Shown piece after piece: positions 44,256-57,736 of a DNA stretch of 64,000 bases. A program made the position numbers and the translations under genes. This DNA comes from Acutalibacteraceae bacterium (lineage in GTDB: Bacteria > Bacillota > Clostridia > Oscillospirales > Acutalibacteraceae), in NCBI GenBank assembly GCA_045532935.1, contig JAZSGW010000013.1, forward strand, positions 92,380 through 156,379, read 5' to 3'. Positions within the stretch are counted from its first letter, which is position 1. The number at the start of each line of letters is the position of its first letter. Under the pieces are notes generated by a model. It searched no databases. It was not told where the DNA came from and worked only from the letters and a program-made list of their open reading frames with translations.

Positions 44256-44463
44256 CTATCGTTAACCCTATGAAGCTGTCGGAATCAAACAGAAACCGAT
44301 AGTGGAGGAGGCTCTGGAGAAGTCCATTAAGTTGGGTGCCCAAGGTGCAAGGTGAAACATTTCACTGAATCTCTCAGGCAAAAGGACAGAGCAGAAGATA
44401 TAACTGTATTTTCTAGCTTTTCTTTGTTTTCAGACCGCCTCTTTTCAGGGGCGGATTTTTTTG
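44256..44463 (+). promoter_or_regulatory. Glycine riboswitch (single aptamer plus 5' accessory stem-loop) with terminator expression platform
   Basis: The aptamer at 44312-44391 is CUCUGGAGAAG...GCCCAAGGUGCAAGG...AAUCUCUCAGGCAAAAGGACAGAG. It matches the glycine aptamer consensus (CUCUGGAGAG / GCCGAAGGAGCAA / CUCAGGCAAAAGGAC). An upstream stem-loop CUAUCG...CGAUAG lies at 44256-44305. A terminator CCGCCUC/GGGGCGG plus U7 lies at 44434-44463. Confidence 0.85.
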
Positions 44464-46802: not shown

Positions 46803-46879
46803 CCGGGTGTGGCGCAGCTTGGTAGCGCGCTTGACTGGGGGTCAAGAGGCCGCAGGTTCAAGTCCTGTCACTCGGACCA
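46803..46879 (+). tRNA. tRNA-Pro (anticodon GGG), CCA encoded
   Basis: I folded the cloverleaf by hand. Acceptor CCGGGTG/CACTCGG (one G.U), D arm GCGC-AGCTTGGTA-GCGC, anticodon arm CTTGA-CTGGGGG-TCAAG (U33, GGG, G37), T arm GCAGG-TTCAAGT-CCTGT, and 3' ACCA. Confidence 0.9.
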
Positions 46880-49209: not shown

Positions 49210-49245
49210 TGAAAGGTTGTCAGTTACGGCAACCTTTCATTTTTC
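49210..49245 (+). terminator. Intrinsic terminator after the SDR gene, overlapping the 3' end of the convergent methyltransferase ORF
   Basis: 10-bp perfect stem TGAAAGGTTG/CAACCTTTCA followed by TTTTT. Confidence 0.75.
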
Positions 49246-50056
49246 TGAACACATCAAGCATATGAATAGACATACCTACACAATCCTCACGTTCGCAAAG
49301 AACGGAAAGAAATTTCATATACTCCTCAAATTCACGGTCACTTAAATCATTGAATTTGTCATCAAATATGTAAGACAGCATATCGACACCGACAAAGTGA
49401 AGTCTTGTAACATTGTGACTTTCCATAAGCCTATCAATATCAGCTTTACGGTACAGCTCAAATATTTCCTCGGGTGCAGAAACTGTATGATAATCTTCTT
49501 TGATAAGACCTTTTTCTAAATAATCAAGTACGATGTTTTTATAAAAAAACTTATAAATTGAGGTATCATTATTACAGTAAGAAGCGTAAATTACACCATC
49601 TGTTTTTGCTAATCTTATTGCTTCGTCAAGAGCCTTATGCTTATCTTCATCAGTAAAAAGATGATACATGGGACCTAACAGTAATACAATGTCATAAGTA
49701 TCACTTTCAAATTCAGACATATCGCAGGCATTGCCTTCATAAATCTTGATATTGTGATTGGGTTTGACTTTTTTCTCCATAATTTCAATGTTATGGGGAA
49801 CAAGCTCAACCGCAGTAACATCATAACCCATTTCAGCAAGTGCGAGGGAATATCTGCCCGTTCCTGCACCTATTTCAATTATTTTTGCACCGGGTGTGAG
49901 ATACTTTTCAACATATTTCATTGTTGTAAGATACTCCGGCATTCGGCTTTTACGCATCAGTCTGCCTTCTTCATCGTAGTTATTGTAAAAATCAATAACA
50001 CTGTTTCCTGTTGTTACAGGTTCGGATTTCTTTTTGAACAGTTCTGAAAGTTTCAT
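49220..50056 (-). CDS. Class I SAM-dependent methyltransferase
   Basis: 278 aa. Motif I IIEIGAGTGRYS, an acidic post-I residue (VELV), and the motif II region DIVLLLGP. The AGGAGG SD directly follows a terminator-like hairpin. Confidence 0.8.
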   Translation of the reverse strand: MKLSELFKKKSEPVTTGNSVIDFYNNYDEEGRLMRKSRMPEYLTTMKYVEKYLTPGAKIIEIGAGTGRYSLALAEMGYDVTAVELVPHNIEIMEKKVKPNHNIKIYEGNACDMSEFESDTYDIVLLLGPMYHLFTDEDKHKALDEAIRLAKTDGVIYASYCNNDTSIYKFFYKNIVLDYLEKGLIKEDYHTVSAPEEIFELYRKADIDRLMESHNVTRLHFVGVDMLSYIFDDKFNDLSDREFEEYMKFLSVLCEREDCVGMSIHMLDVFRKMKGCRN

Positions 50057-50067
50057 AAAAACTCCTC

Positions 50068-50116
50068 CTAAATAAAAAATTAACGGTGTAAGCTTATCTG
50101 AAAAGCCTACACCGTT
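50068..50116 (-). terminator. Strong hairpin plus U-tract between the glycosylase gene and the methyltransferase SD (attenuator 2 / operon terminator)
   Basis: In the minus-strand RNA: a 15-bp stem UAACGGUGUAGGCUU/AAGCUUACACCGUUA (one G.U), loop UUCAGAU, then A-UUUUUU-A-UUU running straight into AGGAGG. Confidence 0.75.
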
Positions 50117-50141
50117 ATAATCATATCGTTATAAAAATACA

Positions 50142-50243
50142 GTTACGTATCCGAAAATGAATATATAGGTATAGACCTGCAGCCATAATATGGTGCAAGC
50201 CAAAGCATATACATTTCTGTTTTGTTTGAAAGATATGCGTTCA
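50142..50243 (-). promoter_or_regulatory. Candidate leader ORF 2 (33 codons, TTG start; or 23 codons from the internal ATG at 50213)
   Basis: GAGAGG SD (50258-50253) 9 nt before the TTG. Peptide MNAYLSNKTEMYMLWLAPYYGCRSIPIYSFSDT. Its codons 15-18 contain GGCUUGCACC (50200-50191), which is complementary to the terminator 5' arm. Confidence 0.4.
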
Positions 50244-50286
50244 AATCAGTTTACCTCTCTACTGTACTTTTCGTAAATATATCACA

Positions 50287-50778
50287 TCATTGTTCTGTTG
50301 TCAAGTTTTTAATTAATCCCCACGCCACAACAAGCCTATCAACACTCCAACCCGCATTGGCAGGTGAGGTTGAGGGCAGACAAACAGCCTCTCTGCCGAT
50401 TTTGTCACGGATATACTTGTTGTAATACTTTTCGGCGGTTTTGCCGTTGACGAAAATCTGCCTGATGTCAGCGTTTTCAAGTATCTCTGTAAGGTCATTT
50501 GCGACCACATTTTTTATTGAACTGTCAGAGCTGCCCGTTATATCACAAGAGGCGATTACGTCCCACAATGCAATATGATTTGCGTGCAGAAAGTCACTTT
50601 TCTCCTCAATGGTTACAGGTGTATCAGCACCCATAACGGCAGAAACAACTTTCCAGAATCTGTTCTGTGGATGGCCGTAGAAAAACATCTGCTCACGGGA
50701 TTTCACCGACGGAAAACTACCAAGAATAAGTACTTTTGAGTTTTTGTCATATAGGGGCGGGATAGGGTGTTTAGGCAT
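50287..50778 (-). CDS. UDG-superfamily DNA-deoxyinosine (hypoxanthine) glycosylase-like protein
   Basis: 163 aa. LILGSFPSVKSREQMFFYGHPQNRFW and LPSTSPAN match the family-6 HDG-type pattern as I remember it. Confidence 0.7.
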   Translation of the reverse strand: MPKHPIPPLYDKNSKVLILGSFPSVKSREQMFFYGHPQNRFWKVVSAVMGADTPVTIEEKSDFLHANHIALWDVIASCDITGSSDSSIKNVVANDLTEILENADIRQIFVNGKTAEKYYNKYIRDKIGREAVCLPSTSPANAGWSVDRLVVAWGLIKNLTTEQ

Positions 50779-57496: not shown

Positions 57497-57530
57497 ACCA
57501 CCGGGAATAAAAGTTCCCGGTGGTAATTTT
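57497..57530. terminator. Bidirectional terminator
   Basis: 10-bp perfect stem ACCACCGGGA/TCCCGGTGGT, followed by AATTTT on the plus strand and TTTGTTAT on the minus strand. Confidence 0.75.
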
Positions 57531-57541
57531 AGCTTGATTAG

Positions 57542-57736
57542 AAAAAAATAAATCCCGCCGTGCCGTTCGTGATGTGTATAACCTGCCTCAATAGCAGGGT
57601 GGTGATAGCGAGACGGGTTCGCGCTCCCTTCGTCCGCAGAAGCGGGAGGTCTGCAATCCGCCGTCAAAGCATCTCTCCGTTTTATAACGTGTTGGGTTAT
57701 AACGATCACAGTTGTCGCACACAGCAGGAGTTATAA
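57542..57736 (-). ncRNA. Candidate structured sRNA, rod-like (6S RNA-like?)
   Basis: A segment at about 56% GC (98 of 175 nt counted over 57554-57728) sits in an AT-rich spacer. The 5' and 3' ends pair over about 30 bp in four helices, with G.U pairs that work only on the minus strand. An apical CCGC-UUCU-GCGG hairpin sits exactly at the midpoint. A 3' U-tract follows. Confidence 0.5.

What the first reader, a model, noticed from the sequence alone, without database searches (positions are those of the whole stretch)
50068..50258. Second leader-ORF/antiterminator/terminator module between the glycosylase gene and the methyltransferase gene
No terminator follows the glycosylase stop (50287). 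Instead, GAGAGG and a TTG-initiated 33-codon ORF (50243-50142, with an internal ATG at 50213) come first.

About 25 nt later lies a very strong 15-bp hairpin (50116-50080). It is followed by A-U6-A-U3, which merges directly into the AGGAGG SD of the methyltransferase. No room is left for a promoter between the hairpin and the gene, so methyltransferase expression must depend on read-through.

The segment GGCUUGCACC inside the small ORF (50200-50191) can pair with GGUGUAGGCU of the terminator 5' arm (50112-50103). That duplex has 10 bp, three of them G.U.

The geometry matches attenuator 1: SD, then an ORF containing the anti-strand, then about 22-25 nt, then the terminator, then the next SD. 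The antiterminator pairing and the TTG start are weaker evidence than in attenuator 1.
Basis: seen in the sequence. Interest (0 to 1): 0.65.

Follow-up and report, generated by a model that had tools for sequence, protein, structure and literature searches.

The report
Leader-peptide attenuator controlling a methyltransferase gene
A short translated leader followed by a terminator hairpin sits, with its own promoter, in front of a methyltransferase gene and is conserved in dozens of related gut bacteria, so the gene is probably switched on only when ribosomes stall on the leader: a familiar kind of switch, but an example I found described nowhere.

Summary
On the minus strand lie a near-consensus promoter (50304-50276) overlapping the glycosylase stop, a GAGAGG Shine-Dalgarno, a TTG-initiated 33-codon ORF (50244-50143), a 15-bp terminator (50117-50081, -21.4 kcal/mol), a U-tract, and then the AGGAGG/ATG of a class I SAM methyltransferase.

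Leaders of this type precede the orthologous methyltransferase in 34 related gut Clostridia genomes and 4 metagenome contigs. In the 29 aligned, the promoter is conserved although the upstream DNA is unrelated. The ORF is open in 29/29 (no stops in frame, 39 and 41 in the other frames), has an SD 6-10 nt upstream, and starts with ATG outside the closest clade. Indels within the ORF are 3n.

Covariation supports a four-segment attenuator:
- GGCUUGCAC pairs with GUGCAGGUC (anti-antiterminator).
- AGGUCUAUACC pairs with the terminator 5' arm (antiterminator, 99.7% of cells paired).
- The terminator itself.

Most likely this is a ribosome-stalling transcription attenuator. The signal and the methyltransferase's substrate are unknown. 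It is a new member of a known kind, of moderate interest.

The parts
50276..50304 (-). Promoter of the leader-methyltransferase unit. It consists of -35 TTGACA (50304-50299), a 17-nt spacer with extended -10 TG (50284-50283), and -10 TATATT (50281-50276). It overlaps the glycosylase stop codon (50289-50287). The predicted start of transcription is near 50270.
   Evidence: 11 of 12 consensus match with TG. TTGACA is conserved in 31 of 32 orthologous leaders, with a TGn-TAnnnT -10 region in most, although sequence upstream of -35 is unrelated. RNA contigs from three gut metatranscriptomes end at 50250, 50255 and 50275, with a coverage gap up to about 50317. This RNA evidence is weak.
50254..50259 (-). 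Shine-Dalgarno (GAGAGG) of the leader ORF, 9 nt before the TTG start.
   Evidence: An SD-like 4-mer lies 6-10 nt upstream of the aligned start codon in 29 of 29 leaders.
50143..50244 (-). Leader ORF: 33 codons plus TAA, with a TTG start. The peptide is MNAYLSNKTEMYMLWLAPYYGCRSIPIYSFSDT.
   Evidence: Listed. It is conserved as a 31-36 codon ORF in 32 of 32 group-1 leaders, with ATG in all but the closest clade. There are 0 stops in frame against 39 and 41 in the other two frames. Indels between the start and the last conserved codons are 3, 6 or 9 nt.
50212..50237 (-). Hairpin H0 inside the ORF: CAUAUC (50237-50232) paired with GAAAUG/GAUAUG (50217-50212). It is imperfect in this window's clade, which uses a shifted register, GCAUAU:AUAUGC.
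   Evidence: 83.9% of cells are paired in the alignment. The window's own MFE shows the shifted register. Its role is unknown.
50192..50201 (-). Segment 1 (A), GGCUUGCACC, covering codons 15-18 (W L A P). It is the 5' arm of the anti-antiterminator hairpin.
   Evidence: A:B is 93.9% paired with 3 pairs changed on both sides and is predicted by RNAalifold. The hairpin energy is -13.3 kcal/mol.
50168..50181 (-). Segment 2. B (UGCAGGUC, 50181-50174) pairs with segment 1. B' (AGGUCUAUACC, 50178-50168), which overlaps B, pairs with the terminator 5' arm as the antiterminator. It covers codons 22-26 (C R S I P).
   Evidence: B':C is paired in 318 of 319 cells. There are compensatory A-U to G-C and C-G to U-A changes. 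Duplex energy is -8.8 to -13.5 kcal/mol in all 29 leaders.
50116..50165 (-). Helper hairpin H2: UAUAUUCAU (50165-50157, the last ORF codons) paired with AUGAUUAUA (50124-50116). The ORF stop codon (50145-50143) lies in its loop. H2 abuts the terminator 5' arm and stacks under the B':C helix.
   Evidence: 7 of its 8 pairs are paired in about 90-100% of sequences, 3 of them with changes on both sides, and there is one constant U.U mismatch. RNAalifold predicts it. H2 plus B':C folds as one hairpin of -22.3 kcal/mol.
50081..50117 (-). Intrinsic terminator hairpin, formed by segments 3 and 4. The 5' arm is 50117-50103, the loop 50102-50096 and the 3' arm 50095-50081.
   Evidence: 15 bp, 6 of them G-C, at -21.4 kcal/mol. 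It is 97.5% paired, with 6 pairs changed on both sides.
50070..50080 (-). U-tract AUUUUUUAUUU, running directly into the SD of the methyltransferase.
   Evidence: A T-rich tract between hairpin and SD is present in the aligned leaders.
49220..50069 (-). Regulated gene. SD AGGAGG is at 50069-50064 and the ATG at 50056. It encodes a 278-aa class I SAM-dependent methyltransferase of unknown substrate.
   Evidence: Pfam Methyltransf_25/11/31/23. No NCBIfam model reaches its cut-off. The Foldseek best hits are generic small-molecule and tRNA methyltransferases.

Best explanation
This is a self-contained, ribosome-mediated (leader-peptide) transcription attenuator that gates a monocistronic methyltransferase gene.

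Transcription starts near 50270 from a strong promoter. The roughly 190-nt leader encodes a 33-codon peptide and can fold in two ways.

OFF state:
- Segment 1 (GGCUUGCAC) pairs with segment 2 (UGCAGGUC).
- Helper hairpin H2 forms.
- The loop-proximal part of the terminator 5' arm (GGCUU) stays free, so the 15-bp terminator nucleates and RNA polymerase stops at the U-tract, 11 nt before the methyltransferase SD.

ON state:
- A ribosome sits over segment 1 (P-site roughly at codons 11-18, M-Y-M-L-W-L-A-P) while the polymerase transcribes the terminator region.
- Segment 2 is then free, and AGGUCUAUACC pairs with the whole terminator 5' arm (GGUGUAGGCUU), stacked on H2.
- The terminator cannot form, and the methyltransferase mRNA is made.

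In this window and most relatives, a ribosome held further on (codons 22-26) would instead free segment 1 to capture the same arm. A ribosome that reaches the last codons or is released, or no translation at all, gives termination.

Shown here: the parts, their conservation and covariation, and the coding character of the ORF.

Inferred: the dependence on ribosome position, and that stalling is the signal.

Not known: what causes the stall. My best guess (about 0.35) is a ribosome-targeting antibiotic or another translation stress. The methyltransferase would then modify a component of the translation apparatus or the compound itself.
For: - **Promoter.** An 11/12 consensus match with extended -10. 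It is conserved in 31 of 32 leaders while the upstream DNA differs.
- **ORF.** Conserved in 32/32 leaders with GAGG and ATG/TTG. There are 0 stops in frame against 39 and 41 out of frame. An SD is present in 29/29. Indels within the ORF are 3n, while those downstream of the stop are of any length.
- **Terminator.** 97.5% paired, with 6 doubly changed pairs.
- **A:B hairpin.** 93.9% paired, with 3 doubly changed pairs.
- **B':C antiterminator.** 99.7% paired, against 27-50% for slid controls, with compensatory changes in L014, L044 and L027.
- **Independent prediction.** RNAalifold recovers A:B, H2 and the terminator.
- **Energies.** The antiterminator hairpin is -22.3 kcal/mol against -21.4 for the terminator.
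- **Ribosome-mask scan.** With the P-site at codons 11-18 the full 11-bp B':C forms. At codons 22-26 A:C forms. At codons 27-31 neither forms.
- **Linkage.** All four leaders found by a leader-first scan of metagenomes are followed by the same methyltransferase.
- **Divergent relatives.** More distant orthologues carry a different leader peptide (MNKHFAKLNAQPQQPRQYVWAFWCCVHLR) with the same promoter, ORF, antiterminator and terminator layout.
- **RNA.** Contigs from gut metatranscriptomes cover the leader, and some run through the terminator into the gene.
- **No other RNA family.** Nothing in Rfam matches.
Against: - There is no experimental evidence of conditional read-through. The RNA data are assembled contigs of related organisms and map no transcript ends.
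- Substitutions in the ORF show no three-base periodicity: entropy is 0.70, 0.66 and 0.74 at codon positions 1-3, p = 0.31. The peptide sequence itself may therefore not be under selection, and the conservation is largely RNA-level.
- At equilibrium, with segment 1 masked, the terminator fold (-29.3 kcal/mol) still beats the antiterminator (-25.2). The switch must therefore be kinetic.
- As an isolated duplex, A:C is as strong as or stronger than B':C in 18 of 29 leaders, this window included. Which helix acts here is not settled.
- No known arrest motif and no run of regulatory codons is conserved.
- The methyltransferase is not a member of any known resistance family.
Confidence: 0.72

Rival explanations
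1. The antiterminator is GGCUUGCACC (50201-50192) paired with GGUGUAGGCU of the terminator arm. It forms when a ribosome stalled over codons 22-26 keeps UGCAGGUC from sequestering segment 1.
For: The duplex is 10 bp at -14.8 kcal/mol in this window, slightly stronger than B':C. Nine of its ten pairs are largely conserved. In the mask scan it forms when the P-site is at codons 22-26.
Against: - It collapses to between -3.5 and -8.2 kcal/mol in L007, L014, L025, L026, L032, L039 and L091. In those same leaders A:B and B':C stay intact.
- It is 90.7% paired against 99.7% for B':C.
- It needs a helix bridging a stalled ribosome, whereas B':C stacks directly on H2.
Confidence: 0.12
2. The leader is a non-translated structured RNA, such as a riboswitch or a protein- or tRNA-binding leader. 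It controls the terminator, and the ORF is incidental.
For: Nucleotide conservation is very high, including at third codon positions, and substitutions show no codon periodicity. The region folds well (z = -4.06).
Against: - The frame is open in 29/29 leaders, against 39-41 stops in the other frames. The SD and start codon sit at the right spacing in all, and indels within the ORF are 3n.
- No Rfam family matches, even at E up to 10.
- No conserved multi-helix junction or ligand-pocket-like core is seen, only alternative hairpins.
Confidence: 0.07
3. The hairpin is a plain, unregulated, leaky terminator. It ends the glycosylase operon and simply sets a low constitutive level of methyltransferase. 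The alternative pairings have no function.
For: No terminator follows the glycosylase gene, so the hairpin does end those transcripts. Read-through RNA contigs exist without any known inducer.
Against: A dedicated strong promoter, a conserved ORF and two conserved competing helices with compensatory changes travel with the methyltransferase into unrelated genomic contexts. A fixed leaky terminator does not explain this.
Confidence: 0.06
4. The 33-aa product is itself a functional small protein, for example a membrane peptide or a partner of the methyltransferase, rather than (or as well as) a regulatory leader.
For: The peptide has conserved residues: W15, L16, A17, R23, S24, L27, Y28, S29, F30.
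Against: The conserved residues coincide with the RNA pairing segments. There is no excess of third-position change. Distant orthologues have an unrelated-looking peptide with the same RNA logic.
Confidence: 0.03

Closest known systems
Bacillus subtilis tlrB (yxjB) leader: tylosin-dependent ribosome stalling plus transcription attenuation upstream of a 23S rRNA methyltransferase (PMC6851288)
   Same: - A promoter-proximal leader peptide is followed by an intrinsic terminator directly upstream of a SAM-dependent methyltransferase gene.
- Expression needs read-through that depends on a ribosome held on the leader.
- It is a conserved chromosomal unit rather than a mobile cassette.
   Different: - The tlrB peptide is 9 aa (MIIQFIRYR) with an R-X-R arrest motif, and the stalled ribosome physically covers the base of the terminator. 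Here the peptide is 31-36 aa with no conserved R/K-X-R/K. The stop codon lies 25 nt before the hairpin, and control runs through competing helices (A:B, B':C).
- The tlrB leader also has an SD-sequestering hairpin and NusG-dependent pausing. Neither was seen or tested here.
- The enzyme here is not RlmA(II).
Enterobacterial trp operon leader (trpL) and other amino-acid biosynthetic attenuators. This comparison rests on textbook knowledge, not on tests here.
   Same: - It has the same four-segment logic: 1:2 and 3:4 in the off state, 2:3 in the on state.
- Segment 1 lies inside the leader ORF.
- Termination is expected both without translation and with complete translation.
   Different: - There are no tandem regulatory codons.
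- The downstream gene is not biosynthetic.
- An extra helper hairpin (H2) carries the stop codon in its loop.
- In most lineages segment 1 can also capture segment 3.
Antibiotic-responsive ribosome-mediated attenuators of Firmicutes found by term-seq (B. subtilis vmlR and bmrB-bmrCD, Listeria lmo0919 and hflXr; PMC6310831, review PMC5418344), and the ermK leader. Details are from my own knowledge.
   Same: A short upstream ORF, an alternative antiterminator and a terminator sit upstream of a gene that protects or modifies the translation apparatus. The whole is a single transcription unit with a strong promoter.
   Different: - There is no sequence similarity of peptide or RNA.
- Many of those sensors respond to stalling at or near the start codon. 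Here the critical window is codons 11-26.
- The regulated gene here has no demonstrated link to resistance.

Membership tests
Ribosome-mediated (leader-peptide) transcription attenuator | A short ORF with a ribosome-binding site lies in the 5' leader, downstream of a promoter. | tested here: met
   The promoter is at 50304-50276. GAGAGG, TTG and a 33-codon ORF follow. The ORF, SD and start are conserved in 29/29 aligned leaders, with 0 in-frame stops.
Ribosome-mediated (leader-peptide) transcription attenuator | An intrinsic terminator lies between the leader ORF and the structural gene, with no promoter after it. | tested here: met
   A 15-bp hairpin plus U-tract occupies 50117-50070 and runs into the SD. 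The hairpin is 97.5% paired with 6 covarying pairs. No promoter-like site lies in 50117-50057.
Ribosome-mediated (leader-peptide) transcription attenuator | A mutually exclusive antiterminator has its 5' strand inside the ORF, and an anti-antiterminator sequesters that strand. | tested here: met
   B':C is 99.7% paired with compensatory changes. A:B is 93.9% paired with 3 covarying pairs. B and B' overlap at AGGUC (50178-50174).
Ribosome-mediated (leader-peptide) transcription attenuator | Read-through changes with the position or stalling of the ribosome on the leader. | not testable with these tools
   Only an in-silico mask scan and metatranscriptome contigs without end mapping were available.
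Macrolide/MLS-inducible erm or tlrB-type leaders | A known arrest motif in the leader peptide (R/K-X-R/K, IFVI, IAVV, VDK). | tested here: not met
   None is conserved in the peptide alignment. An R-X-K/R at the C-terminus occurs in only some orthologues (L010, L011, L025, L074) and not in this window.
Macrolide/MLS-inducible erm or tlrB-type leaders | The regulated gene is an Erm or RlmA(II) rRNA methyltransferase. | tested here: not met
   The Erm and KsgA models match only the SAM-binding motif (residues 54-123), at 27-31 bits against cut-offs of 171-475. PDB sequence and fold searches give generic class I methyltransferases.
Amino-acid biosynthetic attenuators (trp, his, leu, phe, thr, ilv) | A run of codons for the regulatory amino acid in the leader, and a biosynthetic operon downstream. 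| tested here: not met
   There is no run of any one codon. Single W15 and M11 are conserved in most leaders but not all. The downstream gene is a lone methyltransferase.
Riboswitch, T-box or other curated cis-regulatory RNA (Rfam 15) | A match to a curated covariance model. | tested here: not met
   No match reaches gathering score anywhere in 50000-50330. At E up to 10 there are only scattered miRNA/sRNA chance hits, the best at E = 0.19.

The most novel reading that the evidence does not exclude
The conserved 31-36 aa leader peptide (M-N-x-Y-L-x-x-K-x-D-M-Y-x-x-W-L-A ... C-R-S-I-P-L-Y-S-F) is a nascent-chain sensor. It arrests the ribosome in response to a particular ribosome-targeting compound or metabolite. 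The methyltransferase it controls is a so-far unrecognised inducible modifier of the translation apparatus, or of that compound. This would be an intrinsic, inducible tolerance system shared by many uncultured gut Acutalibacteraceae of people and livestock.
Probability: 0.25. Interest if true: 0.7.

Novelty: new member of a known kind. Interest (0 to 1): 0.45.

Why it matters
The finding adds a well-supported, previously unannotated regulatory unit to a gene that automated annotation calls only 'class I SAM-dependent methyltransferase'.

An enzyme kept off by a ribosome-sensing attenuator, across many species and with at least three different leader peptides, is probably needed only under translation stress. 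That makes this methyltransferase family a sensible candidate to test for rRNA, tRNA or drug methylation in gut commensals exposed to veterinary and human antibiotics.

The leader is also a compact natural example of a four-segment attenuator with a helper hairpin, and possibly two alternative antiterminators. It could serve as a model or as a reporter of ribosome stalling in Clostridia.

The mechanism class itself is textbook, so the value lies in the new instance and in what it says about the gene. It does not establish a new principle.

Tried and rejected
- **Rfam.** Nothing matched at gathering or permissive thresholds.
- **RNA-seq.** No run of the organism itself was found. Only metatranscriptome contigs of relatives were available. 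They show that the leader is transcribed and that some molecules read through. They cannot show ends or conditionality.
- **Codon periodicity.** The test for peptide-level selection was negative.
- **X1:X2 extension.** A longer anti-antiterminator (AUGUAUAU with AUAUUCAU) is only 74.6% paired, so I dropped it from the core model.
- **Leader-first metagenome scan.** Of 79 pattern hits, 75 were chance matches. The 4 true leaders all precede the same methyltransferase, so no other regulated gene was found.
- **Function of the methyltransferase.** Pfam, NCBIfam, PDB sequence search, an AlphaFold model (pLDDT 67.8) and Foldseek all gave only generic class I methyltransferases.
- **Cultured homologues.** Clostridium butyricum and Subdoligranulum carry homologues at 39-46% identity, but these lack the leader, so they are of no use as a model.
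- **Exact-protein look-up.** Not on record.
- **Mini-ORF.** I considered the 5-codon mini-ORF AUG AUU AUA ACG GUG UAG over the terminator arm as a second sensor. I rejected it because it has no SD and its frame is not kept in L008 and L016.
Full report
**What is there**

All features lie on the minus strand.

- The deoxyinosine-glycosylase gene (TIGR04274) ends with TGA at 50289-50287, and no terminator follows it.
- A near-consensus promoter overlaps that stop codon: TTGACA (50304-50299), a 17-nt spacer with an extended -10 TG, and TATATT (50281-50276). This is an 11/12 match and the only strong minus-strand site nearby. It puts the start of transcription near 50270.
- Next come GAGAGG (50259-50254) and, 9 nt later, a TTG-initiated ORF of 33 codons (50244-50143). 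It encodes MNAYLSNKTEMYMLWLAPYYGCRSIPIYSFSDT.
- Twenty-five nt after the stop lies a 15-bp hairpin (50117-50081, -21.4 kcal/mol).
- After the hairpin come AUUUUUUAUUU, AGGAGG (50069-50064) and the ATG (50056) of a 278-aa class I SAM-dependent methyltransferase.

The region folds better than all 200 shuffles (z = -4.06). No Rfam family matches it.

**Relatives**

The methyltransferase has many orthologues (74-93% identity among the 120 listed) in uncultured gut Clostridia. A scan of one genome per species returned 80 loci, mostly Acutalibacteraceae, Candidatus Fimenecus and Eubacterium-like genomes assembled from metagenomes of human and livestock guts. I extracted the 330 nt upstream of each gene.

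- **Group 1.** Thirty-one loci plus the window share this leader. L019 and L024 carry the same leader further upstream of the gene. L032 and L039 carry a diverged form and were added to the alignment.
- **Group 2.** About twenty more distant loci carry a different leader with the same layout.
- **No leader.** In the rest the gene follows a GNAT acetyltransferase or another methyltransferase directly.

A leader-first pattern scan of metagenome contigs gave 79 hits. Four of them are true leaders, and all four precede the same methyltransferase. The leader and the gene thus travel together.

**Own promoter**

In the alignment of 32 leaders, TTGACA and the TGn-TAnnnT -10 region are conserved in 31. 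Sequence upstream of -35 can be aligned only among the closest relatives, which also have the glycosylase gene there.

The unit is therefore promoter, leader, methyltransferase and terminator. A hairpin shared with the convergent SDR gene lies at 49210-49239.

Transcripts of the glycosylase operon would also run into the attenuator, since nothing stops them earlier.

RNA contigs from three gut metatranscriptomes of related organisms end at 50250, 50255 and 50275, and leave a gap up to about 50317. That fits a start near 50270. One further run has a contig continuous with the glycosylase gene. This evidence is weak, because the data are assembled contigs rather than mapped ends.

**The ORF is translated (inferred from conservation)**

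- The ORF is open in all 32 leaders at 31-36 codons. It starts with ATG everywhere except the window's own clade, where TTG is conserved across WIN, L001-L007.
- Over the first 31 codons of 29 distinct leaders there are no stops in frame, against 39 and 41 in the other two frames.
- An SD-like 4-mer lies 6-10 nt upstream of the start in all 29.
- Length differences within the ORF are 3, 6 or 9 nt, while those downstream of the stop are of any length.

Against a role for the peptide sequence as such, substitutions show no three-base periodicity. The conserved residues (W15-L16-A17 and C22-R-S-I-P-L-Y-S-F30) coincide with the RNA pairing segments.

**The RNA switch**

RNAalifold on the 29 leaders predicts three hairpins:

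- A:B, in which GGCUUGCAC (50201-50193) pairs with (G/C)UGCAGGUC (50182-50174).
- H2, in which UAUAUUCAU (50165-50157) pairs with AUGAUUAUA (50124-50116), with the stop codon in its loop.
- The terminator.

Counting pairs on the alignment gives:

| Helix | Cells paired | Pairs changed on both sides |
|---|---|---|
| Terminator | 97.5% | 6 |
| A:B | 93.9% | 3 |
| H2 | 84.5% (one constant U.U) | 3 |

The terminator 5' arm GGUGUAGGCUU (50113-50103) is G/U-rich and has two possible upstream partners.

*B':C.* AGGUCUAUACC (50178-50168) overlaps B by five bases and lies two bases from H2. This helix is paired in 318 of 319 cells, against 27-50% when the partner is slid by 1-3 columns. It shows A-U to G-C changes in L014 and L044 and a C-G to U-A change in L027.

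Per-sequence duplex energies make the difference plain:

| Helix | Range in 29 leaders (kcal/mol) |
|---|---|
| B':C | -8.8 to -13.5 in every leader |
| A:B | -6.0 to -12.4 |
| A:C | falls to between -3.5 and -8.2 in L007, L014, L025, L026, L032, L039 and in the metagenome leader L091 |

In those seven leaders the other two helices stay intact. It is just not the conserved core.

**How it most likely works (inferred)**

H2 plus B':C folds as one long hairpin of -22.3 kcal/mol, as stable as the terminator at -21.4. A:B and B':C compete for AGGUC.

- When A:B holds AGGUC, the loop-proximal GGCUU of the terminator arm stays free. The terminator can then nucleate and displace the remaining 7-bp CUAUACC:GGUGUAG.
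- When a ribosome covers segment A, the full 11-bp B':C forms before the 3' arm of the terminator is transcribed.

I masked a ribosome footprint codon by codon on the nascent RNA:

| P-site codons | Predicted pairing of the terminator arm |
|---|---|
| 11-18 | full 11-bp B':C |
| 22-26 | A:C |
| 27-31 | neither |

The unmasked full-length RNA folds into A:B, H2 and the terminator (-41.5 kcal/mol).

At equilibrium with A masked, the terminator fold still wins by about 4 kcal/mol. The decision must therefore be kinetic, as in other attenuators.

The logic is that of the trp leader: termination without translation or after complete translation, and read-through when the ribosome lags in the middle of the ORF. 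Group 2 leaders show the same logic with different sequences. There, UGUGUUCAU at the end of the ORF pairs either with an upstream CUGAAUGCACAG or with AUGAACACA in the terminator.

**What is not known**

*The signal.* No run of regulatory codons and no known macrolide arrest motif is conserved. One lead rests on my recollection of published context rules for phenicols and oxazolidinones and was not tested here. A conserved Ala followed by Q/R-P (WLAQP in group 1, LNAQP in group 2) lies in the critical window.

*The enzyme.* The substrate is unknown.
- No NCBIfam model reaches its cut-off. The only hit spanning most of the protein is to the tRNA methyltransferase CmoM, at E = 1e-5.
- PDB sequence hits are generic.
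- The AlphaFold model is mediocre (pLDDT 67.8), and its Foldseek neighbours are small-molecule and tRNA methyltransferases.
- It is not an Erm or RlmA(II) enzyme.
- Homologues at 39-46% identity in Clostridium butyricum and Subdoligranulum lack the leader.

**Comparison with what is known**

The closest described system is the B. subtilis tlrB (yxjB) leader. There, tylosin-dependent stalling on a 9-aa peptide prevents termination upstream of a 23S rRNA methyltransferase (PMC6851288). The architecture of promoter, leader peptide, terminator and methyltransferase is the same. The peptide, the way the ribosome acts (competing helices rather than steric cover of the terminator base) and the enzyme family all differ.

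The four-segment logic is that of trpL. Two literature searches turned up no description of this leader.

**Verdict**

- It is a new member of a known class of regulators and of moderate interest.
- The interest would rise if the leader proves to sense a specific compound and the methyltransferase proves to act on the translation apparatus.

Noticed in passing
It has a perfect 12/12 promoter (54342-54314) and a leader ORF MMMKSSFVKSDTVLSVCK (54282-54226). A 14-bp terminator (54205-54174) plus U-tract follows, then a YhhN-family gene and a six-gene operon: two FlaR-like P-loop kinases, an alkaline-phosphatase-family phosphodiesterase, a GNAT and the glycosylase. In the MFE, the SD and start of its leader ORF pair with codons 13-17, a layout different from the module studied here. 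GUGAAAUCAGA in the ORF is complementary to the terminator 5' arm.
   Followed up: partly
loci L037, L040, L049, L050, L052, L056, L061, L063-L067, L069, L071, L078 (upstream of the methyltransferase): Orthologues at 65-71% identity carry a second leader family. The peptide consensus is MNKHFAKLNAQPQQPRQYVWAFWCCVHLR, with a sub-type MFIFSVNSHNAQQ..AYLSCVH. The layout of promoter, SD, ORF, antiterminator and terminator is the same, but the sequences differ. L032 and L039 carry a third variant, MKPVLSIHFYMDSQWPVYDAYHASDRSVLLCFIS. One gene family has therefore kept ribosome-sensing control through several turnovers of the leader.
   Followed up: partly
loci L019 and L024: The same leader and terminator are present but lie about 190 nt upstream of the methyltransferase start. 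An extra stretch of unknown nature sits between the U-tract and the SD.
   Followed up: no
window 50076-50078, seen in run X25: Two RNA contigs of a related organism diverge from the window exactly at the U-tract. One carries the glycosylase, leader and terminator, then unrelated sequence. The other carries the methyltransferase preceded by a different hairpin (AACCACTAGT..ACTAGTGGTT). Leader and gene may be shuffled at the terminator in some relatives, or the assemblies may be chimeric.
   Followed up: no
window 50107-50124 (minus strand): A five-codon mini-ORF, AUG AUU AUA ACG GUG UAG, overlaps the 3' arm of H2 and the terminator 5' arm. It has no SD, and its frame is not kept in L008 and L016. 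It is probably not translated.
   Followed up: yes
window 44304-44399 (+), 46803-46876 (+), 57548-57733 (-): Rfam gathering-score matches elsewhere in the window: a glycine riboswitch aptamer, a tRNA and a 6S RNA. A strong bidirectional-looking hairpin (57497-57524) lies just downstream of the 6S RNA.
   Followed up: no
loci L030, L036, L038, L041, L047, L054, L057, L062 and L031, L033, L043, L046, L059, L068: Where the methyltransferase lacks a leader, it follows a GNAT acetyltransferase or a second class I methyltransferase directly in the same orientation. This suggests it belongs to variable arrays of small modifying enzymes.
   Followed up: partly
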